Positions 4,011-41,013 of a stretch of DNA of 64,000 nt are shown here, piece after piece. The stretch spans positions 1,527 to 65,526 of the forward strand of contig JACQGE010000126.1 in the NCBI GenBank assembly GCA_016199675.1. The letters run 5' to 3'. Every line of letters begins with the position of its first letter. Position 1 is the first letter of the stretch. The translations under genes and the position numbers were made by a program. This stretch comes from Acidobacteriota bacterium (GTDB lineage: Bacteria; Acidobacteriota; Terriglobia; 2-12-FULL-54-10). The notes under the pieces are model-generated. The model ran no database searches and was not told the DNA's origin. It was given only the letters and a program-made list of their open reading frames with translations.

Positions 4011-4511
4011 ATGCTAGAAAAAGCCTTACGCCGAAAACTTCCCAGCGGCTGTTTTCAGAATGTGTCAAGACAGCGTTCCGAAAACATGCGGGCCATAAAA
4101 GGAAGTTTGAACACTACTACTGAGCAGTGTTTGCGGCTTGCTCTTGTGAGGGCAGGATTGCACGGCTGGAAAGTGCGGCCGCGCGGTTTGCCTGGAAACC
4201 CGGATTTTGTTTTTCCCGAACGAAGAGTTGCCATCTTTGCAGACGGCTGCTTTTGGCATGGCTGTCCCCATTGCTGCCACGCTCCGGTTAGGAACAACTC
4301 CGCTTACTGGCGAGAAAAGATTAAGCGCAATCGGGCAAGAGATCAAAGCAATCGTCGGCGGTTGCAGACACAGGGGTGGCGAGTCCTTCGAATTTGGGAA
4401 CATGAGTTGAATAGATCACCTGATAAAGCAATCGGCCGCCTCCAATTCTTCCTGACGGCCAAAGGACGCAGGAATCTAGGAATGCGTATTAGATCAGTTC
4501 AATCGAAATAG
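4011..4511 (+). CDS. vsr: Very-short-patch repair endonuclease (T:G mismatch endonuclease)
   Basis: SENMRAIKGSLNTTTEQ...LPGNPDFVF...AIFADGCFWHGCPHC...YWREKIKRNRARD...GWRVLRIWEHEL matches the Vsr signature (NMxxIxxxNT, PGxPDxVF, F(V/A)DGCFWH). It is convergent with the methyltransferase operon. Confidence 0.8.
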   Translation: MLEKALRRKLPSGCFQNVSRQRSENMRAIKGSLNTTTEQCLRLALVRAGLHGWKVRPRGLPGNPDFVFPERRVAIFADGCFWHGCPHCCHAPVRNNSAYWREKIKRNRARDQSNRRRLQTQGWRVLRIWEHELNRSPDKAIGRLQFFLTAKGRRNLGMRIRSVQSK

Positions 4512-6326: not shown

Positions 6327-7271
6327 TTACCAGAGGTCTCCCAAGTTTGAAACAACGGCTTTGAATAACGGTGGCGGAACAGCGTTGCCGATCAACTGGA
6401 ACCGTTCGCGCACCGTTCCTCTCTCCCATCTGAAATTTTTCGGGAATCCTTGGAGTGCTGCACATTCACGGTAGGACAATCTGCGCGCAGGTCCCTTTCG
6501 TGCGAACACCCACTTGTCCGTGTGGATTCGTTTCAGGGGAGGGCTCATTGGATGAAGCGGAACGTGCCGCCAGTGTCCCACAATGCAGGGACATGGTTCG
6601 TCCCAGTCGTGCCGCCGCCTCCTGGACAGGTAATACCAATGGAAGGGTTCGTCATTGAAATCCCCTTCCGGCCACTGCGGCATGCCGGCTAAAACTTCCT
6701 TCTGCGAAAGCGGACGGCGACCGGTTTCACTACCGTAGAGAGGCTTCGGAAATGTGTACTGGAAACTGATGTCTGACCGGATGCCAACAATGAAGATGCG
6801 TCGGCGCTGTTGTGCAACCCCATAATCTTGAGCGTCAAGCACCTGCCACTTGACACGGTAACCGGCCATTCGGTAGCGGTATAGCTGATTGTGCAGTAGC
6901 TTGCGATTCTCTCCGTAAAGCATCCCATTAACGTTTTCTACCGCGAACGCCCGTGGCAATACCGCACGCAGCACTCGGTCAAACTGCTGATACAGGAAGT
7001 TGATCGAATCACCCGTTTTGCGCCTTCCCCCTTGTGTAAAGCCTTGGCATGGATAGCAGCCCACGAGAAAATCCGCATCTGGGAAGTCAGCGAAGTCGAA
7101 GTCCTGGATGTCACCCTGTTCGATTACCGGTCCTATATTATCTTTGTAAGTCTGGCACGCCACCTCGTCAATATCATTGGCCCAAACGATGTGATGTCCA
7201 AGTTGCTTTATGGCAAAATCGGAACCGCCGCAACCACTGAACAGAGAAATCGTCTGGATTCGTTTCATCAT
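6327..7271 (-). CDS. DNA (cytosine-5)-methyltransferase
   Basis: The C5-MTase motifs are present in the canonical order: I LFSGCGG, IV GCYPCQGFT (PCQ), VI AVENV, VIII QQRRRIFIVG, and X GNAVPPPL at the C-terminus. The start was placed at MMKRIQTISLFSGCGG. The 58-aa upstream extension in the ORF track is unlikely to be real. Confidence 0.85.
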   Translation of the reverse strand: MMKRIQTISLFSGCGGSDFAIKQLGHHIVWANDIDEVACQTYKDNIGPVIEQGDIQDFDFADFPDADFLVGCYPCQGFTQGGRRKTGDSINFLYQQFDRVLRAVLPRAFAVENVNGMLYGENRKLLHNQLYRYRMAGYRVKWQVLDAQDYGVAQQRRRIFIVGIRSDISFQYTFPKPLYGSETGRRPLSQKEVLAGMPQWPEGDFNDEPFHWYYLSRRRRHDWDEPCPCIVGHWRHVPLHPMSPPLKRIHTDKWVFARKGPARRLSYRECAALQGFPKNFRWERGTVRERFQLIGNAVPPPLFKAVVSNLGDLW

Positions 7272-11998: not shown

Positions 11999-13384
11999 TC
12001 AGACCGTAGGCTTTGGCTTGATGTTCTGGTTCACTCGGAAAAAATTGTTCGGATCATATTTGGCTTTGATGACCGCCAGAGAGTCATAGCTGTCGCGGTA
12101 GGTCGCTTTTACGCGGTCCTCGCCTTCTTCCATCATGAAATTGACATACGCGCCGCCCGCAGAGTAGGGGTGCAGAGCTTCCCAATATTTCCTGGCCCAA
12201 TCTATTAAGCGTTCGTTGTTGGCAGGGTCAGGATCAACTCCAACGATGACCTCGGCCCAGGTTGTATCCCGGTAGTTCCAAGCAGTGTCCTTTTTGCTGA
12301 CACGGTGTACCGCGCCATTGACTGGATAGAGGTGCATGGTCGAATGCATGGAGGGAAGTTGGGAGCCATGTTCCACATGGAGCCGAATAGCCTCATCGTT
12401 TAACTCATTCACAAAATCAGCTTTCCAATACCACTGGAGACCCGGCGGGTAAAGCGGGTCGAACATGCTTTGCAGCGCCGGATAAGGCATGGGGCCTACG
12501 AAATCCAAGACGGGGGTCAAGAGTTTGCGAGCCGGCTTAAATACTTTCGCCGCCTTTTTCTCCGGGCCGCAGTAACACCAAACCACCCCACACACTTTCT
12601 TGTTGTGAAGATGTTCCGGAAAGGGAGGGGCGGGGGGCACGGTGAGAAAAGCGAAAAAGCCATTCAACTCCTCGGGCGCCTGCGTGATGAATTCGCGATA
12701 CCATCGCATCACTTCGGGAGCCTGGTCCAGGGTCCAAAACATGGGTCCGCCATGGACGGTGTGGATGGGATGGGCTTTGAAAACAAGAGAAGTGACCACG
12801 CCAAAATTCCCTCCGCCCCCCCGAATCGCCCAAAACAGGTCTTCATTTTGCTTGTTGCTGGCGGTGAGGAAACGGCCATCGGCGAGAACGAGGTCGGCGG
12901 AGATCAGATTGTCAATGGTCAGGCCACATTTGCGGGTGAGGTGGCCGAGGCCGCCGCCGAGTGTCAGGCCGCCAACACCGGTTGTCGAAATGATCCCGGC
13001 AGGCACAGCCAAGCCGAAGGCGTGGGTAGCGTGGTCTACATCGCCCCAAGTGCATCCGCCTCCGACCCGGACGGTTTTGGCTTTGGGGTCAACAAGGGTG
13101 TATCGAATCCGCGAGAGATCAATTACCAAACCATCATCGCAGATGCCCAGCCCTCCTGCGTTATGCCCGCCTCCTCGAATCGAAACCAGCAAGTTATTTT
13201 CTCGGCCAAAATTCACGGCGGCAATGACATCGGCAACGTCGGTACAGCGTGCGATCAGCAAGGGGCGCTTGTGAATCATCCCATTGTAGACTTTGCACGC
13301 TTCCTCATAATTCGGGGCATCGCGATCGATCAATTCTCCGCGCAGCTTTGCTTTTAATTGTCCCATTTCTGCTTTGCCGACCAT
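11999..13384 (-). CDS. FAD-linked oxidase, PCMH-type FAD-binding domain plus berberine-bridge-enzyme-like C-terminus
   Basis: The FAD-binding motif is RGGGHNAGGLGICDDGLVIDLSRI. The C-terminal YVNFMMEEGED...NNFFRVNQNIKP is the BBE-domain signature. The start was set at MVGKAEM, which has a GGGGGA RBS. Confidence 0.8.
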   Translation of the reverse strand: MVGKAEMGQLKAKLRGELIDRDAPNYEEACKVYNGMIHKRPLLIARCTDVADVIAAVNFGRENNLLVSIRGGGHNAGGLGICDDGLVIDLSRIRYTLVDPKAKTVRVGGGCTWGDVDHATHAFGLAVPAGIISTTGVGGLTLGGGLGHLTRKCGLTIDNLISADLVLADGRFLTASNKQNEDLFWAIRGGGGNFGVVTSLVFKAHPIHTVHGGPMFWTLDQAPEVMRWYREFITQAPEELNGFFAFLTVPPAPPFPEHLHNKKVCGVVWCYCGPEKKAAKVFKPARKLLTPVLDFVGPMPYPALQSMFDPLYPPGLQWYWKADFVNELNDEAIRLHVEHGSQLPSMHSTMHLYPVNGAVHRVSKKDTAWNYRDTTWAEVIVGVDPDPANNERLIDWARKYWEALHPYSAGGAYVNFMMEEGEDRVKATYRDSYDSLAVIKAKYDPNNFFRVNQNIKPKPTV

Positions 13385-13592
13385 TGTTTCCCCCTTTGCG
13401 AACAAATAAATTCCGCACACCGCCAAGTGAGGCTAGACAAAAATAGCCTGAGTTAACGCTAAAAACAAGCGGCCAGAAATGACACATCCGCCCTTGGGCG
13501 ACATTGCCCGAATTGCGCAAAAAAGCATTTCCTGTTGCCCTTCTTGCAGGCATAATACAAAGCAGGCAATTCAAAATCAATAGAGCAAAAGG

Positions 13593-14765
13593 ATGGGTCT
13601 AAGTTTCCGGTCGACGACTATCAAGACTTTTATGATTGCTTCAAAAAATTGGATTTCGTCGAGTGTGTTTTTCTACGCCGTAGGGGCCTTTCTGCCAGTA
13701 TGGTTGTTCTCTCAGGCACAACAGGGCCGTTCTCCCAGCGACGCCTGGATGACCGCACCGCCAACTTCCACCGGGATTGCAGTCGGGAAAAGGATCCCCG
13801 ACTTCAACGCCGTTGACCAGTTCGGCAAAATGCGGAACTTTAGCTCCATCCGCGGGCCCAAGGGCGCCGCCATCTTCTTCAACCGCTCTGCGGATTGGTG
13901 ACCCTACTGCAAAACGCAACTCGTCGAGTTGCAACAGAACGCAAATAGATTTCGCCAACAGGGCCTCGGGGTAGTTGTGATTACCTACGATTCAGTCGAA
14001 ATCCTGCGCGATTTTTCGACGCGCCGGAACATCACTATCCCGTTACTCTCGGACCCGAAATCGGAAATGATCCGGGCATTCGGAATCCTGAACACGTCCG
14101 TCCCCCCGACCCATCTGTGGTACGGCGTTCCTTATCCAGGGACTTTCATCGTGGATCAAAATGGAGTCGTGAAGTCTAAATATTTTGAAGACCTGTACTC
14201 GGAACGATATTCCGCTCCAACCATTTTGCTGCGCGAATTTGGCTCCGTTTCCGGCACGCGACAAACAACGGTGGAAACCAAGCATCTCCGATTCAATTAC
14301 CACTCCACGCACGACGTCGTACATCCGGGCTTACGCCTAACCCTAGGTGCAGACTTCCAATTGCCGCCGAAAATGCACGTTTATGCACCGGGGAATCAAA
14401 ACTACATTTCCATCCGTCTGGAGCTCGATGCTTCACCGAACTACAAAGCTCTGCCGGTTCAGTATCCCAAAGCGGAAATCTTGTATCTGTCTGCTATAAA
14501 GGAAAGAGTTCCCGTTTATCAAGGAAGGTTTCGAGTCACTCAGGATATTACCATAGCAACTGGAAGCGTCCTCCAGCCCATCATCGCCAGCAACGGCGAG
14601 CTGAAGATCAGCGGGAAGCTCCGCTATCAGGCTTGCGATGACCAAATCTGCTATTTGCCGGAAACCCTTCCCCTGGAGTGGACTCTAAAAGTGGAATCAC
14701 TGGACCGCGAGCGGGTTCCGGAACCGATCCAGCACAAGCCTGTCCCTGCTACAGAGGGAAGATAA
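13593..14765 (+). CDS. Predicted selenoprotein: a thioredoxin-fold redoxin (AhpC/TSA-like or Redoxin-like) with a U-x-x-C active site. Sec is encoded by the in-frame TGA at 13899-13901. A roughly 170-aa C-terminal extension follows.
   Basis: Two same-frame ORFs (13593..13901 and 13929..14765) are separated only by a TGA. Read through, the sequence is ...AAIFFNRSADW-U-PYCKTQLVELQQ...GVVVITYD...GTFIVDQNGVV. This is a canonical W-C-x-x-C redoxin motif with the first Cys replaced by TGA. The fold continues uninterrupted across the stop. A hairpin lies 15-31 nt downstream. Confidence 0.7.
13911..13937 (+). promoter_or_regulatory. Putative bacterial SECIS element, a stem-loop following the in-frame UGA
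   Basis: GCAACU (13916-13921), loop CGUCG, then AGUUGC (13927-13932) form a 6-bp stem. The apical loop contains GU and lies 21-25 nt 3' of the UGA. This sits within the 16-37 nt window of the bacterial SECIS consensus. Confidence 0.5.
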
Positions 14766-14794
14766 TGGTTTATCCGGAAGTGAGCGGCGGGCGA

Positions 14795-15172
14795 TCAAGG
14801 CGACAGGAAGTCCGCTATCAATCCTGCTTCTAGCCACGCCATCAGCGCCTGAAGGCCTTCGGGCTCTTCCAGAAATGAAATGCCTGCGAGTCCAATCTCC
14901 GTGCGGATGATGCGTCCCCTGGCGTGAATCTCCGTGTTATAACCTTGAATCGCAAAACGGGTTTCGACATCCGTTCCCACCCTCGGCGGAATCTTGCTCA
15001 GAACCAGGAGACCGCCAGCGCTCACATTTATCACTTCGTCAACTTCATCAACCTTATCTCCGGAGACTCCCGCAGGCGTGCGTAGAACTGCCTGACCTTT
15101 TACCAAGAATCGCTTGTGTCGGCGTCTATCGTCGCTGACGGAATGGAACATGTTGAAGCTCCGAACTCCCAA
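14795..15172 (-). CDS. PilZ-domain (c-di-GMP-binding) protein
   Basis: RRRHKRF (the RxxxR motif) and NVSAGGL (the DxSxGG motif) have PilZ spacing. The true start may be the internal MFHSV. Confidence 0.65.
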   Translation of the reverse strand: MGVRSFNMFHSVSDDRRRHKRFLVKGQAVLRTPAGVSGDKVDEVDEVINVSAGGLLVLSKIPPRVGTDVETRFAIQGYNTEIHARGRIIRTEIGLAGISFLEEPEGLQALMAWLEAGLIADFLSP

Positions 15173-16544: not shown

Positions 16545-16605
16545 AGTCTTGTCAAGAACGCCGATATTGGGTATTATCCCCCATTCGGAAATTCATGTGG
16601 TAGAA
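16545..16605 (+). promoter_or_regulatory. Sigma-70-like promoter upstream of the IS1595-like ORF
   Basis: TTGTCA (16549-16554), a 17-nt spacer, then TATTAT (16572-16577). There is also a TGGTAGAAT extended -10-like element at 16596-16604. The AAGGAG RBS sits at 16612-16617. Confidence 0.3.
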
Positions 16606-16622
16606 TGGCAAAAGGAGTTGCG

Positions 16623-17225
16623 ATGGCGCTGATAGACGCTATCATCAAGAATAAGCGCACTTTTGACACGGAAGAGAAGTGCATTGCTTATTTAGAGAAG
16701 CTGCGATGGCCGGGGGGTGTTTCCTGCCCCTCCTGCGGGTGCGAGAAAATTTCCCGCATCTTGGCGAAAGGAAAATCCGGCAAAAATCGGCGGCTCTACC
16801 AGTGCCTGGAAAAGTCCTGCCGGTACCAATTTTCTCCCACTACGGGAACCATTTTCCACGATAGCCATCTCCCATTGAAGACTTGGTTCGATGCTATTGC
16901 CCTCATTGCTGGTTCCAAAACGGACATATCCGTAAATCAATTGAGGTTGCACCTGGGCATTCAGTACAAGACCGCCCAGCGCATGGTGCAATGCATCCGT
17001 GAAGCTGTACAGGAACGGAGAGTCGCTGAAGAACGGCGGAAACGCAGTGGAAAATTTACGGCCCTAGACCGCTCCCTTGAGCTCCCCGTCAACCTCTTCT
17101 GGAATGGAGGAACGATCATCGGCAACAGCATGAACATTGCCACATCGATGGCAAGAGTAGCTATTCGTTCCCCTTTCTATTTTGCCAAATACATAGTCTC
17201 AAAAGGTTCTCCAGTAAATACATAG
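16623..17225 (+). mobile_element. IS1595/ISXO2-family transposase N-terminal (zinc-ribbon plus HTH) domain ORF lacking the DDE catalytic domain. This is an IS remnant or a domesticated fragment.
   Basis: EEKCIAYLEKLRWPGGVSCPSCGCEK...YQCLEKSCRYQFSPTTGTIFHDSHLPLKTWFDAIALIAGSK...YKTAQRMVQCIREA matches the conserved N-terminus of IS1595 transposases. The ORF ends after 200 aa with no DDE region. I did not identify inverted repeats. Confidence 0.55.
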
Positions 17226-17410: not shown

Positions 17411-17971
17411 TTAACGGGGCTTGGGAAGTTTGCTCAGCAGGGCTTGTGGTTCCTTCCCCTTGTGATCCCCTAGTAACCACTCCACGCGCTGAAAGACATC
17501 TTTCTTCTTTGCTTCGCCCAAAATGCGGTAAATAATTCGTCCTTCCGGGTCTAAGAACACCGTTGATGGAAGCGCGTCTCCGAGTCCGAATAACTCTAAA
17601 TTGTCAACGGTGGCATCCACGAGCACCGGGAATGCGATCTTGCGCTTCTGGATGAATTGCGGGATCGCCCCTTTGGTCTCTGCCGCGTCCAGAGAGACGG
17701 CCAGGATGGCTACACCCCGCGCTCCATAGCGGCGGTTCGCCTCGACGAAAATCGGCATTTCGGCAGCGCATGGTGCGCACCAGGTCGCCCAGAAATTGAG
17801 GACCACGACCTTGCCACGAAACTCTTCCAGGCGGTGTAACTGTCCCTGCTGGTCCGGGAGTTCGAAAGTGGGCGCGGGGTCTTGCGCCCAACTGGACCGC
17901 AGGAAAGCGGTTTCAAGCAGGATCGCCAGAAGCCCAACCGCCACAGCCGATTTGAGGGGGAGCTTTCGCAT
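17411..17971 (-). CDS. TlpA/ResA-like periplasmic thiol:disulfide oxidoreductase (thioredoxin fold)
   Basis: A signal peptide (MRKLPLKSAVAVGLLAILL) is followed by VVLNFWATWCAPCAAEMP, a WCxxC active site. The start was chosen at MRKLP. The longer upstream extension overlaps the pseudogene. Confidence 0.8.
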   Translation of the reverse strand: MRKLPLKSAVAVGLLAILLETAFLRSSWAQDPAPTFELPDQQGQLHRLEEFRGKVVVLNFWATWCAPCAAEMPIFVEANRRYGARGVAILAVSLDAAETKGAIPQFIQKRKIAFPVLVDATVDNLELFGLGDALPSTVFLDPEGRIIYRILGEAKKKDVFQRVEWLLGDHKGKEPQALLSKLPKPR

Positions 17972-17990
17972 AGCCTGCCACACCGCCAAT

Positions 17991-18683
17991 TTAGAACGCC
18001 CTCGAAAAACCGAACATGAGGAGCCAGTCAGCAAACGCCGCATCGCCATGTCCTCCGGAGCGGACGTCCGGGACACTCCGGGTGCGGTTCCGATAGACCG
18101 CAATGGGGGCGCTGACCGACCATGTGCTTTGGCCACGTGAATACATCACGCCCGGCCCGAGGGTGAAAGCATAGCCGGGACGCCGGAACCCATCCTCTCG
18201 GCCGATGATGTCGCGCGCCGGAACACCCTCCATCCGCGCCGTTCCCGTGAACGCAAGCCCGTATGGGTCACCGTTTCAGCGCGATGATTGACTCGATCCA
18301 CGACAATGAACGGAGCACCGACATTCAAACTCCAACGCGGCGAAACGCGGTAACTCAGCGCAACATCGAACAGGTGCAGCTTATTTTCCATCTGCGTGTC
18401 TAGTTCCACGCGCTGTTTCTGCTCCACGTCGCCCCGAAAGTGGGTGTTGGAGTCCTGCCAGCGGTAGCCCATCGAGAATTGCCAGCGAGATGCAGTGGAA
18501 AGCGTGGTCGTTACGCTGGGTCCACCTACTGCCTGTTCCCCATCATGTCCAGCTTGGCATATGGCGCCAATCACGGGCGCCCCTGTGCGTGCAGCCACTC
18601 AACCCTGCGCGTTCAGGCGAGGGACTTGCAGAAAAACAGCCAATACGAAGACAGATATTGCCCATTGTCTCATGCGCCTCATG
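17991..18683 (-). pseudogene. Disrupted outer-membrane beta-barrel protein gene, with frameshifts and a premature stop
   Basis: The minus-strand ATG at 18683 gives the signal peptide MRRMRQWAISVFVLAVFLQVPRLNAQG followed immediately by a stop. Downstream, beta-strand-like segments continue in two other frames (…SYRVSPRWSLNVGAPFIVVD… and …GYAFTLGPGVMYSRGQSTWSVSAPIAVYRNRTRSV…). They end in a C-terminal Phe (…LLMFGFSRAF), which is typical of OMPs. Confidence 0.45.
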
Positions 18684-40527: not shown

Positions 40528-41013
40528 GTGTACCAGAATGAGACTTACCAAATACCGGTAAGGAGGTGCGGGGTTATGACAGGAATGCGGGTTTGCATGC
40601 TTTCCGGCTTTGTGGCTACATTGTGCGGCATATCCCAGTCCATGTACGCTGCGGAAATCACAGTTCAAGTGAGCGGTTTCCGCAATGACAAGGGCAGCGC
40701 GATTATCTACCTTTGGAATGGCAAATCGGGTTTCCCGCGGGATACGACCAAATCCTTTCAGCAGAAGCCCGTTCCGATCGAGGGGACATCTGCGAAGGTC
40801 ACCTTCACCGATATTGCTCCGGGCGACTATGCGGTTAGCGTGACCCACGACGAAAATAGCAGCGGCAAGATGGACACGGGCTTTATGGGCAGGCCAAAAG
40901 AAGGATACGGCGTTTCGAACAACATTAAGAAATTTCTTCCGCCCTCGTTTGATGAGTGCAAGATCACCCTGGATGACAATGGCAAAACCATTGATATCCA
41001 AGTTAGATACTAG
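40528..41013 (+). CDS. DUF2141-like secreted protein
   Basis: THDENSSGKMDTGFMGRPKEGYGVSNN resembles the conserved DEN-x-NGK-D...G-P-EGYGFSNN core of DUF2141. Confidence 0.55.
   Translation: MYQNETYQIPVRRCGVMTGMRVCMLSGFVATLCGISQSMYAAEITVQVSGFRNDKGSAIIYLWNGKSGFPRDTTKSFQQKPVPIEGTSAKVTFTDIAPGDYAVSVTHDENSSGKMDTGFMGRPKEGYGVSNNIKKFLPPSFDECKITLDDNGKTIDIQVRY

What the first reader, a model, noticed from the sequence alone, without database searches (positions are those of the whole stretch)
13593..14765. In-frame UGA replaces the first Cys of a W-C-x-x-C redoxin motif: predicted selenocysteine (U-x-x-C) thiol oxidoreductase
Two same-frame ORFs are separated by a single TGA at 13899-13901. Reading through gives ...FNRSADW-U-PYC-KTQL... 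embedded in an intact thioredoxin/AhpC-TSA-like fold. The TGA falls exactly where the nucleophilic Cys belongs, which is the classic signature of bacterial Sec-containing redoxins. Automated callers would annotate this as two fragments or a pseudogene. The protein also has a signal/anchor segment and an uncharacterised C-terminal domain of about 170 aa containing CDDQIC.
Basis: partly seen in the sequence, partly recalled or inferred. Interest (0 to 1): 0.7.

Follow-up and report, generated by a model that had tools for sequence, protein, structure and literature searches.

The report
Selenocysteine redoxin fused to DsbD-like domain
This is a real but mis-annotated gene for an exported redox enzyme. 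Its in-frame TGA "stop" very probably encodes selenocysteine at the active site, and it belongs to a selenoprotein family already catalogued in 2008, so it is a sound finding of an ordinary kind.

Summary
One TGA (13899-13901) interrupts a 390-codon frame (13593-14765) exactly where homologues carry the first Cys of W-C-P-Y-C.

**Evidence that the TGA encodes selenocysteine**
- 13 distinct orthologous loci from Acidobacteriota MAGs have TGA at this codon. 74 have TGC or TGT.
- Both flanks are under purifying selection (dN/dS about 0.1-0.3).
- TGA is otherwise the commonest stop codon in the window (22 of 51 ORFs).
- A 7-bp hairpin with a G-U-N loop starts 14 nt after the UGA and meets all four published bacterial SECIS criteria.
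- That hairpin shows compensatory changes. It reaches dG <= -7.5 kcal/mol in 11/13 Sec forms but only 8/74 Cys forms.

**The protein**
- A signal peptide.
- A ResA/TlpA/Prx-like redoxin domain with U-x-x-C.
It is an nDsbD-like Ig-fold domain with an invariant C-x4-C pair.

The likely function is a periplasmic thiol-disulfide electron relay. That part is inferred.

**Limits and novelty**
- No selA, selB, selD or tRNA-Sec gene lies in the window, so the machinery is untested here.
- The family, including this fusion, is already listed as "Prx-like 1" selenoproteins in the 2008 GOS dataset.
- NCBI annotates the gene only as a 278-aa fragment.

Verdict: a genuine new member of a known kind, of modest interest.

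The parts
13593..14765 (+). Complete coding sequence of the selenoprotein. It has 390 codons including Sec103, with the stop TAA at 14763-14765. The start at ATG 13593 is not certain; ATG 13632 (Met14) is an alternative.
   Evidence: Read-through orthologues have the same architecture in 13 loci. dN/dS is 0.1-0.3 on both sides of the TGA.
13593..13718 (+). Predicted Sec-type signal peptide or N-terminal anchor. It has a basic residue K18, a hydrophobic core at about residues 21-39, and S-Q-A followed by Q43.
   Evidence: Read from the sequence. All orthologues have an equivalent hydrophobic N-terminus ending in AQA, AAQ or VHAQ. The AlphaFold model of orthologue P0008 is disordered over residues 1-30. 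The cleavage site is inferred and was not computed with a dedicated predictor.
13782..14198 (+). Thioredoxin-fold redoxin domain (Pfam AhpC-TSA / Redoxin) carrying the W-U-P-Y-C active site.
   Evidence: Pfam. In a PDB profile search the best hits are ResA, with its WCxxC aligned. Foldseek places the orthologue model nearest to Bcp, Prx and ResA folds.
13899..13901 (+). In-frame UGA, predicted selenocysteine codon (residue 103). The resolving Cys106 codon is TGC at 13908-13910.
   Evidence: Aligned with Cys in 74 orthologous loci and with TGA in 12 others.
13916..13932 (+). Predicted bacterial SECIS core hairpin GCAACUC-GUC-GAGUUGC. The stem is 13916-13922 paired with 13926-13932, and the loop is 13923-13925. 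There are 21 nt between the UGA and the loop.
   Evidence: Fold energy is -9.8 kcal/mol with z = -1.8, and -9.2 for the 23-nt core. It meets all four criteria of the bSECIS model quoted in PMC13188914. 95.6% of cells are paired in 13 Sec forms, with G-C/A-U/G-U and G-C/C-G exchanges. Sec forms differ from Cys forms with p = 1.3e-7.
14334..14666 (+). nDsbD-like immunoglobulin-fold domain with the conserved redox pair Cys348 (14634-14636) and Cys353 (14649-14651) in Y-Q-A-C-D-D-Q-I-C-Y-L-P.
   Evidence: Pfam DsbD_N 1e-9, above the gathering score. The AlphaFold model of the window's own residues 220-390 has pLDDT 90.5. Its best PDB matches are E. coli DsbD N-terminal domain entries 1L6P, 3PFU, 1VRS, 1Z5Y and 1JZD, and ScsB entry 6C29. 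Y, Q, A, C, C and P are invariant in 38 homologues.

Best explanation
Window 13593-14765 is one gene for an exported, roughly 39-kDa selenoprotein. The UGA at 13899 is recoded to selenocysteine by SelB/tRNA-Sec, directed by the hairpin that starts 14 nt downstream.

The mature protein has two redox-active modules:
- A thioredoxin-fold (ResA/TlpA/'Prx-like') domain. Its nucleophile is Sec103 in W-U-P-Y-C and forms a selenenylsulfide with Cys106.
- A C-terminal immunoglobulin-fold domain homologous to the alpha (N-terminal) domain of DsbD, with the Cys348/Cys353 pair.

The most likely mechanism is a thiol/selenol-disulfide electron relay in the cell envelope, arranged like a DsbD gamma-alpha pair without the membrane domain:
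1. A separate CcdA/DsbD-beta-type membrane protein reduces the U-x-x-C redoxin.
2. The redoxin reduces the fused nDsbD-like domain.
3. That domain hands electrons to other periplasmic thioredoxin-fold proteins.

The reverse order, with the nDsbD-like domain as entry point and the Sec redoxin as the terminal reductase, is also possible.

What is shown: the gene structure, the Sec/Cys pairing, the SECIS-like element and the domain identities. What is inferred: selenium insertion itself, export, the redox partners and the direction of electron flow.
For: **Recoding**
- TGA aligns with the first Cys of RSADW-C-PYCK in full-length homologues.
- TGA is present at that codon in 13 distinct loci, against 74 with TGC/TGT.
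- The N-terminal part is conserved in frame in all Sec forms.
- dN/dS against the closest Sec-form loci (L085, L086) is 0.15-0.18 upstream and 0.09-0.14 downstream. Upstream values over all computable comparisons are 0.11-0.52.
- TGA terminates 22 of 51 window ORFs, so the code is standard.
- 84 of the 120 best database clusters are gene-caller fragments that begin 4-40 residues after the codon.
- One JGI call renders the TGA as Trp.

**SECIS**
- The element is a 7-bp stem with loop GUC, 21 nt after the UGA, at -9.2 to -9.8 kcal/mol. The published criteria are a 3-9 nt loop, a 4-16 bp stem, G in the first two loop positions, 16-37 nt spacing and MFE <= -7.5.
- It shows covariation.
- 11/13 Sec forms and 8/74 Cys forms reach -7.5 kcal/mol, Mann-Whitney p = 1.3e-7.
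- Sec and Cys forms interleave on the tree, as expected for Cys/Sec exchanges.

**Sec trait in relatives**
- L086 has a DUF3179 gene with W-U-E-L-C, and L085 has a GrdB/PrdB-like gene with A-U-G-L-C. Both have downstream hairpins, both belong to listed selenoprotein families, and both lie within a few kb of 79-82% identical orthologues.
- Some Acidobacteria are known Sec users (PMC1794560).

**Domains**
-.

**Partner**
- CcdA-like DsbD_TM genes lie next to the orthologue in L085, L086/L087, L036 and L090.

**Family precedent**
- GOS 'Prx-like 1' selenoprotein reads have the same RSADW-U-PYCK motif and the same YQACDDxICYLP tail.
- One of these reads is 38% identical to the window protein over both domains, E 9e-76.
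Against: - No selA, selB, selD or tRNA-Sec gene is in the window or in the fetched flanks. The machinery is therefore unverified for this MAG.
- No Rfam family matches the hairpin.
- The hairpin's z-score against shuffles is modest in isolation: -1.8 for 52 nt and -0.17 for 81 nt.
- Covariation rests on two pairs. Part of the stem is constrained by the conserved peptide Q-L-V-E-L.
- A few Cys forms keep an equally stable hairpin (L054, L072).
- No CcdA-like gene is present in this window. Adjacency was seen in only 4 of about 87 distinct loci, so the proposed electron donor is weakly supported.
Confidence: 0.85

Rival explanations
1. The redoxin domain is the terminal catalytic unit, working as a peroxidase or sulfenic-acid/peroxide reductase. 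Sec103 reacts with the oxidant, and the fused nDsbD-like domain recycles it with electrons taken from a DsbD/ScsB-type system. On this reading it is not an electron-transfer relay that ends at the nDsbD-like domain.
For: - Foldseek's top structural neighbours of the N-terminal domain are Bcp/PrxQ and AhpC peroxiredoxins.
- Pfam assigns AhpC-TSA.
- Sec is typical of peroxide-reducing enzymes (established knowledge).
- Envelope peroxiredoxins fed by DsbD-like systems exist (ScsB-TlpA-PprX; PMC3322552, abstract).
- E. coli nDsbD naturally donates electrons to thioredoxin-fold proteins such as CcmG and DsbC (PDB 1Z5Y and 1JZD among the hits).
Against: - The peroxiredoxin signature P-x3-T/S-x2-C is absent. 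The sequence is F-F-N-R-S-A-D-W-U, with Ala at -3 and no Pro at -7.
- W-C/U-x-x-C is the thioredoxin/ResA/TlpA-type motif, and the best sequence-profile matches in the PDB are ResA.
- All NCBIfam peroxiredoxin equivalogs score far below their cutoffs.
Confidence: 0.25
2. The UGA is decoded, but not as selenocysteine. A suppressor tRNA inserts Cys or another residue. Candidates are a tRNA-Sec-like tRNA-Cys ('selC*') or an acidobacterial allo-tRNA with an opal anticodon.
For: PMC5389517 reports tRNA-Sec-like allo-tRNAs in Acidobacteria that may act as nonsense suppressors, and selC* tRNA-Cys that may read UGA. The Sec machinery was not seen in the window.
Against: - The conserved SECIS-type hairpin is specific to the TGA forms. 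That points to SelB-dependent recoding.
- Selenoprotein genes of other known families sit beside the orthologue in close relatives.
- selC* genes were reported from other phyla, not from Acidobacteria.
- TGA is the main ordinary stop codon in the window, so general suppression would be costly.
Confidence: 0.05
3. The TGA is a true stop. Either the gene is a pseudogene or sequencing error, or it is two separate genes: a 102-aa N-terminal peptide and a 278-aa protein re-initiated at TTG 13929, as NCBI annotates.
For: The public annotation calls only the 278-aa ORF. A TTG lies 27 nt after the TGA.
Against: - The same TGA is present in 13 independent assemblies that are 43-87% identical at the protein level.
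- Both sides are under purifying selection in one frame.
- The split would cut a thioredoxin fold exactly at its active-site helix and discard the nucleophile.
- The fragments' 'start codons' vary in position from locus to locus, which is what gene-caller artefacts look like.
Confidence: 0.03

Closest known systems
'Prx-like thiol:disulfide oxidoreductase' / 'Prx-like 1' selenoprotein family (PF00578, U-x-x-C). Described in Kryukov & Gladyshev 2004 as cited in PMC9312934 and PMC13188914, and in the GOS Dataset S1 of PMC2398784.
   Same: - It has the same Pfam domain and the same U-x-x-C position of Sec.
- GOS reads filed under 'Prx-like 1' carry the identical RSADW-U-PYCK-x-QLVELQ motif and the same C-terminal ...MHVYAPG...YQACDDxICYLP domain.
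- JCVI_READ_1599685 aligns over both domains at 38% identity, E 9e-76, with U in the same column.
   Different: - This copy comes from a soil or sediment Acidobacteriota MAG rather than marine plankton or Deltaproteobacteria.
- The papers read here do not identify the C-terminal domain or mention DsbD (0 occurrences of 'DsbD' in PMC2398784).
- No NCBIfam model covers the family, so it is still annotated as a fragment.
E. coli DsbD (alpha-beta-gamma electron transporter) and ScsB
   Same: - The C-terminal domain has the nDsbD fold (Foldseek E 8.5e-7 to 1L6P; also 1VRS, 1Z5Y, 1JZD and ScsB 6C29).
- It has a conserved Cys pair in a Y-Q-x-C...C-Y-x-P context.
- As in DsbD, an nDsbD-type domain is combined with a thioredoxin-fold C/U-x-x-C domain.
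   Different: - There is no membrane (beta, DsbD_TM) domain in the polypeptide.
- The domain order is thioredoxin-fold first and alpha-like second, the opposite of DsbD.
- The Cys spacing is C-x4-C. From my memory of E. coli DsbD it is C103-x5-C109 there; this was not checked here.
- The thioredoxin-fold partner carries Sec.
ResA / TlpA / CcmG (DsbE) extracytoplasmic thiol-disulfide oxidoreductases
   Same: - They share the thioredoxin fold with the W-C-x-x-C helix.
- They share an exported location and dependence on CcdA/DsbD in characterised systems.
- ResA is the best PDB sequence-profile match (E 9e-13).
   Different: - The score is far below the NCBIfam ResA and DsbE cutoffs: 42.6 against 170 bits, and 26.6 against 123 bits.
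- Sec replaces the nucleophilic Cys.
- There is an extra nDsbD-like domain.
Selenoprotein peroxiredoxin (Prx, PF00578, T-x-x-U) and PrxU
   Same: It has the same Pfam domain and is a selenoenzyme of the thioredoxin-fold superfamily.
   Different: The Sec position and motif differ: U-x-x-C after Trp here, against T-x-x-U in Prx. NCBIfam PrxU scores 21 bits against a cutoff of 270.

Membership tests
Bacterial selenoprotein gene (UGA recoded by SelB/SECIS) | In-frame UGA aligned with a catalytic Cys in homologues (Sec/Cys pair) | tested here: met
   74 orthologous loci have TGC/TGT and 13 have TGA at the same codon.
Bacterial selenoprotein gene (UGA recoded by SelB/SECIS) | The coding frame is conserved and under purifying selection on both sides of the UGA | tested here: met
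   Read-through proteins are colinear in 13 loci. Upstream dN/dS is 0.11-0.52 and is at most 0.29 in eight of nine computable comparisons. Downstream dN/dS is 0.06-0.14.
Bacterial selenoprotein gene (UGA recoded by SelB/SECIS) | bSECIS stem-loop: 3-9 nt apical loop, 4-16 bp stem, G in the first two loop positions, 16-37 nt from UGA to loop, MFE <= -7.5 kcal/mol (PMC13188914, Fig. 2 legend) | tested here: met
   The loop is GUC (3 nt), the stem is 7 bp, the spacing is 21 nt and the energy is -9.2 to -9.8 kcal/mol. It is conserved with compensatory changes and enriched in Sec forms over Cys forms.
Bacterial selenoprotein gene (UGA recoded by SelB/SECIS) | selA, selB, selC (tRNA-Sec) and selD present in the same genome | not testable with these tools
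   None is in the 64-kb window (ARAGORN; Rfam; Pfam on 51 ORFs). Indirect support comes from other known selenoprotein genes beside the orthologue in L085 and L086.
Bacterial selenoprotein gene (UGA recoded by SelB/SECIS) | Selenium actually incorporated at the UGA position | not testable with these tools
   This needs 75Se labelling or mass spectrometry.
Prx-like thiol:disulfide oxidoreductase / Prx-like 1 selenoproteins | PF00578 (AhpC-TSA) domain above Pfam's gathering score | tested here: met
   101 bits against a cutoff of 26.
Prx-like thiol:disulfide oxidoreductase / Prx-like 1 selenoproteins | Sec in a U-x-x-C motif at the thioredoxin-fold active site | tested here: met
   The motif is W-U-P-Y-C. 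The family definition by domain plus motif is quoted.
Prx-like thiol:disulfide oxidoreductase / Prx-like 1 selenoproteins | Sequence homology to catalogued members | tested here: met
   GOS 'Prx-like 1' read JCVI_READ_1599685 gives E 9e-76 and 38% identity, with U aligned. The prototype WP_010940744.1 could not be fetched.
Peroxiredoxin (Prx / BCP / AhpC) | Active-site signature P-x3-T/S-x2-C(U) | tested here: not met
   The sequence before U103 is F-F-N-R-S-A-D-W, with Ala at -3 and Phe at -7. The signature itself is from established knowledge.
Peroxiredoxin (Prx / BCP / AhpC) | Score above the NCBIfam equivalog cutoffs | tested here: not met
   The best is 43.8 bits against a cutoff of 140 (thiol peroxidase). 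PrxU scores 21 against 270.
DsbD alpha (N-terminal) domain, PF11412 | Pfam DsbD_N match above the gathering score | tested here: met
   38.9 bits against a cutoff of 25, over residues 248-358.
DsbD alpha (N-terminal) domain, PF11412 | Immunoglobulin-like fold superposable on nDsbD | tested here: met
   The model has pLDDT 90.5. The top seven PDB hits are all E. coli nDsbD entries, with E from 8.5e-7 to 5.7e-6 and TM-score (target-normalised) 0.60-0.70.
DsbD alpha (N-terminal) domain, PF11412 | Conserved redox-active cysteine pair | tested here: met
   C348 and C353 are invariant in 38 homologues. Redox activity itself is untested.
DsbD / ScsB full-length electron transporter | DsbD_TM (beta) membrane domain in the same polypeptide | tested here: not met
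   There is no PF02683 hit in the protein. Separate DsbD_TM genes are adjacent in only some relatives. It therefore contains a DsbD-like module but is not a DsbD.
ResA / DsbE (CcmG) orthologues | Score above the NCBIfam subfamily cutoffs | tested here: not met
   ResA scores 42.6 against 170 bits. DsbE scores 26.6 against 123 bits.

The most novel reading that the evidence does not exclude
The protein is a selenium-dependent 'gamma-alpha' half of a split DsbD system. A CcdA-type membrane protein would feed a Sec-containing redoxin that is covalently fused to its nDsbD-like acceptor. That would make selenocysteine a component of the envelope reducing pathway in a large share of soil Acidobacteriota. 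Because 84 of the 120 best database clusters are truncated calls, the family would also be a widespread and systematically missed exported selenoprotein in soils.
Probability: 0.35. Interest if true: 0.5.

Novelty: new member of a known kind. Interest (0 to 1): 0.35.

Why it matters
**Practical value**
- The gene is mis-annotated in GenBank as a 278-aa fragment that lacks its signal peptide and active site.
- The same error affects most database entries of this family: 84 of the 120 best clusters.
- One JGI call renders the codon as Trp.
- A family-specific model, such as an NCBIfam selenoprotein rule anchored on RSADW-U-PYCK plus YQACDDxICYLP, would correct hundreds of Acidobacteriota annotations.

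**Biological value**
- The finding marks this MAG lineage as a probable selenium user.
- It points to an envelope thiol-disulfide relay in which a Sec redoxin is fused to an nDsbD-like domain. This is a testable small system for asking why Sec replaces Cys in exported oxidoreductases.

The finding does not open a new category. Sec-containing U-x-x-C 'Prx-like' redoxins have been known since 2004, and this very fusion is in the 2008 GOS selenoprotein list.

Tried and rejected
- **Rfam.** A gathering-score scan of the whole window and a permissive scan of 13850-14000 found no SECIS family. The only hit was an irrelevant weak one on the opposite strand.
- **tRNA search.** ARAGORN found no tRNA in the window. 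In the 12 Sec-form loci it found only tRNA-Thr and tRNA-Leu.
- **Sec machinery and redox partners.** Pfam scans of 51 window ORFs found no SelA, SelB, SelD, YedE/YedF or DsbD_TM.
- **Look-up of the window's own fragment.** An exact-sequence look-up of P0006 in the contig index found nothing, so the rest of the MAG could not be reached.
- **Structure prediction with U replaced by C.** I used the 62%-identical Cys orthologue P0008 for the full length, and the window's own C-terminal 171 residues for the second model.
- **Foldseek on the full-length model.** It returned only N-domain (Prx/ResA) matches.
- **phmmer of the C-terminal domain against the PDB.** It found nothing relevant. Only the fold search did.
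- **Promoter and terminator scan of 13300-15000.** There was nothing on the + strand.
- **A second selenoprotein at 18146-18148 (- strand).** Here a 150-aa ORF and the TlpA-like redoxin at 17411-18136 share a frame across a TGA. I considered and rejected this. The context R-A-U-C-I-H has no redox-motif homology, and the redoxin has its own Met, signal peptide and W-C-A-P-C.
- **Scan for other U/C motifs in the flanks of Sec-form loci.** It was mostly noise, with two credible hits that are listed under things noticed.
- **Literature search for PF11412/nDsbD together with selenoprotein.** It returned nothing.
Full report
**1. The observation**

The + strand reads GAT TGG TGA CCC TAC TGC, with TGA at 13899-13901. 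An ATG-initiated ORF at 13593-13901 and the ORF that ends at TAA 14763-14765 are in the same frame. Reading through gives 390 codons containing FNRSADW-U-PYCKTQL.

With Cys in place of U, Pfam finds:
- AhpC-TSA over residues 64-195 (E 5.7e-29)
- Redoxin (2.1e-15)
- DsbD_N over residues 248-358 (1e-9, above the gathering score)

The C-terminal part it called uncharacterised is in fact recognisable.

**2. Is the TGA a selenocysteine codon?**

A protein search returned 4,626 homologues. Full-length ones, such as P0008 at 62% identity, read RSADW-C-PYCKTQ, so a Cys aligns with the TGA.

Most close hits (60-83% identity) are 240-300-aa fragments. 84 of the best 120 begin 4-40 residues after the codon, at varying pseudo-starts. 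This is what gene callers produce when they stop at an in-frame TGA.

I fetched DNA for orthologues. At exactly this codon, 13 distinct loci have TGA and 74 have TGC or TGT. All come from Acidobacteriota MAGs: Terriglobia, Bryobacterales/Sulfopaludibacter, Solibacteraceae and Vicinamibacterales. In every TGA locus the upstream frame is open and encodes the same signal peptide and beta-strands.

- Nei-Gojobori dN/dS between the window and its closest Sec-form relatives (L085, L086) is 0.15-0.18 for the 34 codons upstream and 0.09-0.14 for the 60 codons downstream. Upstream values over all computable comparisons are 0.11-0.52. Both pieces are therefore translated in this frame.
- TGA terminates 22 of 51 ORFs in the window, so the genetic code is standard.
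- A sequencing error or pseudogene is excluded by the recurrence of the TGA in independent assemblies 43-87% identical at the protein level.
- On a neighbour-joining tree the Sec forms make one main clade with a Cys form nested inside it, plus two further Sec forms among Cys clades. This is the Cys/Sec interchange pattern described for thiol oxidoreductase selenoproteins (PMC1794560).

**3. The SECIS element**

The hairpin GCAACUC-GUC-GAGUUGC lies at 13916-13932, starting 14 nt after the UGA. The bacterial SECIS model quoted in PMC13188914 requires a 3-9-nt apical loop, a 4-16-bp stem, a G in the first two loop positions, 16-37 nt between UGA and loop, and MFE <= -7.5 kcal/mol.

The window element has a 3-nt G-U-C loop, 7 bp, 21 nt spacing and -9.2 to -9.8 kcal/mol. 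All four criteria are met.

- Across the 13 Sec forms, 95.6% of stem cells pair.
- One pair switches among G-C (8), A-U (3) and G-U (2). This is the third base of a Gln codon against the first base of a Leu codon. Another pair switches between G-C and C-G.
- Sliding the partner strand drops pairing to 13-48%.
- The 23-nt core reaches -7.5 kcal/mol in 11/13 Sec forms and 8/74 Cys forms. Means are -9.6 and -3.3 kcal/mol, Mann-Whitney p = 1.3e-7.
- Among Cys forms that keep the same peptide [T/S]QLVEL, four of seven have lost the hairpin.

Caveats: the z-score of the single sequence against shuffles is modest, the stem overlaps a conserved peptide, and Rfam has no matching model.

**4. The Sec machinery**

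Nothing in the window encodes SelA, SelB, SelD or tRNA-Sec. This criterion remains untested.

Indirect support:
- In L086 (79% identical orthologue) a DUF3179 gene 2 kb upstream is split by TGA at ATW-U-ELC.
- In L085 (82% identical) a GrdB/PrdB-like gene is split at TPA-U-GLC.
- Both have stable hairpins downstream. Both families, PF11376 (UxxC/T) and PF07355 (UxxC), are listed selenoprotein families.
- L090 has YedE/YedF-like genes nearby.
- Some Acidobacteria were already scored as Sec users in 2006.

**5. What the protein is**

- *N-terminus.* It has a basic residue, a hydrophobic core and S-Q-A before Q43. Orthologues end similarly. I infer Sec-dependent export.
- *First domain.* It is a thioredoxin fold. 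ResA is the best PDB profile match, with its WCxxC aligned. The AlphaFold model of orthologue P0008 (pLDDT 88.9, pTM 0.83) is structurally closest to Bcp, Prx and ResA. The active site lacks the peroxiredoxin P-x3-T-x2-C signature and has the thioredoxin-type W-U-x-x-C. All NCBIfam peroxiredoxin, ResA and DsbE models score far below their cutoffs.
- *Second domain.* I modelled it from the window's own sequence (pLDDT 90.5). It matches E. coli nDsbD best (1L6P, 3PFU, 1VRS, 1Z5Y, 1JZD; E 8.5e-7 to 5.7e-6) and then ScsB (6C29). Cys348 and Cys353, in YQACDDQICYLP, are invariant in 38 homologues.

**6. How it most likely works**

In DsbD, a thioredoxin-fold gamma domain reduces the alpha (N-terminal) domain, which reduces periplasmic thioredoxin-fold proteins. 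This is established knowledge, and the complexes 1VRS, 1Z5Y and 1JZD are among the hits.

Here a U-x-x-C thioredoxin-fold domain is fused to an alpha-like domain, with no membrane domain. My preferred reading is a soluble or anchored gamma-alpha module reduced by a separate CcdA-type protein, with Sec103 as the attacking nucleophile.

CcdA-like DsbD_TM genes lie next to the orthologue in L085, L086/L087, L036 and L090, but not in this window. This step is inferred and weakly supported. The alternative is that the alpha-like domain is the entry point and the Sec redoxin is the terminal reductase or peroxidase. That reading cannot be excluded, and I give it about 0.25.

The gene appears monocistronic between genes on the opposite strand: an FAD/BBE oxidase at 11999-13426 and a PilZ protein at 14795-15172. 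A conventional Cys TlpA-like exported redoxin lies 2.6 kb downstream (17411-18136, W-C-A-P-C) and could be a partner.

**7. Comparison with what is known**

Reviews list 'Prx-like thiol:disulfide oxidoreductase' (PF00578, UxxC/UxxU) as a high-confidence predicted selenoprotein family dating from 2004.

The decisive result is in Dataset S1 of the GOS selenoproteome paper (PMC2398784). Under '#Prx-like 1' it lists reads such as JCVI_READ_900765 and _1599685, with ...LFHRSADW-U-PYCKAQLVELQ... and a C-terminus ...MHVYAPG...YQACDDAICYLP. JCVI_READ_1599685 aligns with the window protein across both domains (38% identity, E 9e-76) with U in the same column.

So the family, including this fusion, has been catalogued since 2008. 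That paper does not mention DsbD. My literature search linking nDsbD/PF11412 with selenoproteins found nothing.

As far as I could check, the following are new:
- the identification of the second domain
- the abundance of Sec forms in Acidobacteriota
- the extent of mis-annotation (MBI3895841.1 is the 278-aa fragment; a JGI call renders the TGA as Trp)

**8. Verdict**

This is a genuine selenoprotein gene, with about 0.85-0.9 confidence short of direct proof of the machinery and of Se insertion. It is a new member of a known kind. Interest is modest (0.35): it is useful for annotation and as a lead on envelope redox biology in soil Acidobacteriota, but it would not surprise a selenoprotein specialist.

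Noticed in passing
L086:6727-7806 (+), TGA at 7039; same in L087: A DUF3179 (PF11376) gene is split by an in-frame TGA at ...IMATW-U-ELCN..., with a -21.5 kcal/mol structure downstream. It lies between a TonB-type OMP gene and a CcdA-like DsbD_TM gene, about 2 kb upstream of the Sec-redoxin orthologue. DUF3179 (UxxC/T) is a listed selenoprotein family, so this looks like a small selenoprotein/CcdA cluster.
   Followed up: partly
L085:3853-4638 (-), TGA at 4164: A GrdB/PrdB-like (PF07355) ORF continues through a TGA at ...LLTPA-U-GLCNR... with a stable hairpin after it. It sits next to a 519-aa pyridine-nucleotide disulfide oxidoreductase gene and about 1 kb from the Sec-redoxin orthologue. It is probably a second selenoprotein in that organism.
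   Followed up: partly
L090:2065-8109: Downstream of the Sec-redoxin orthologue lies a run of genes: an Aminotran_5 gene called in three pieces (398 + 31 + 92 aa), Se_S_carrier (YedF-like), two Sulf_transp (YedE-like) genes, a cupredoxin protein and a 465-aa DsbD_TM protein. This may be a selenium/sulfur-handling neighbourhood. The split aminotransferase was not examined for a TGA.
   Followed up: no
Proteins P0001-P0005 and P0007 (about 610-617 aa): These are tandem double versions of the family. The first copy starts right after the Sec position (MQLVELQ.../VELQQY...), so it is probably a truncated Sec form. The second copy has a degenerate active site (QSADW-S-PYC or QSADW-D-FYS). The second copy may be a redox-inactive paralogue.
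   Followed up: partly
L092:128-1168 (protein P0080; also P0097, and P0070 with Leu): The JGI-called protein reads RSADW-W-PYCK, but the DNA has TGA at that codon. The caller evidently used a TGA=Trp table, so this is a hidden Sec form. P0097 (WW) is probably the same. P0070 (W-L-PYC) could not be checked because no DNA was available.
   Followed up: partly
L054, L072 (Cys forms): Two Cys-form orthologues keep a hairpin as stable (-11.6 kcal/mol) as the Sec forms at the same position. This could mean a recent Sec-to-Cys conversion, or simply reflect the codon choice for Q-L-[VA]-E-L.
   Followed up: no
window:17411-18136 (-): This is a conventional exported TlpA/ResA-like redoxin (signal peptide, F-W-A-T-W-C-A-P-C), 2.6 kb from the selenoprotein gene. 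The preceding 150-aa ORF (18146-18598) shares its frame across a TGA, but that looks like an ordinary stop.
   Followed up: yes
window:34866-42163 (+): This is a block of seven consecutive same-strand ORFs (229-625 aa). Only one has a Pfam match at E <= 1e-5 (DUF2141 at 40528-41013). It follows a FadL-type outer-membrane transporter gene and a GMC oxidoreductase gene. Function is unknown.
   Followed up: no
window:42198-50479 (-): This is a lipid or polyketide-like gene cluster: an acyltransferase, a TetR regulator, a flavin amine oxidase/desaturase-like protein, an SDR, HMG-CoA reductase and two beta-ketoacyl synthases.
   Followed up: no
window:50843-63961 (-): Five FG-GAP/ASPIC-UnbV repeat proteins are interleaved with two very large TPR proteins (963 and 1080 aa). 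The 963-aa protein has a weak cytochrome c554-like hit.
   Followed up: no
window:26367-31618 (+): A phasin-like gene, two SRPBCC/polyketide-cyclase-like genes and two tandem ArsA-type ATPase genes lie in one direction. There is also an IS1595-type zinc-ribbon transposase remnant at 16605-17225.
   Followed up: no
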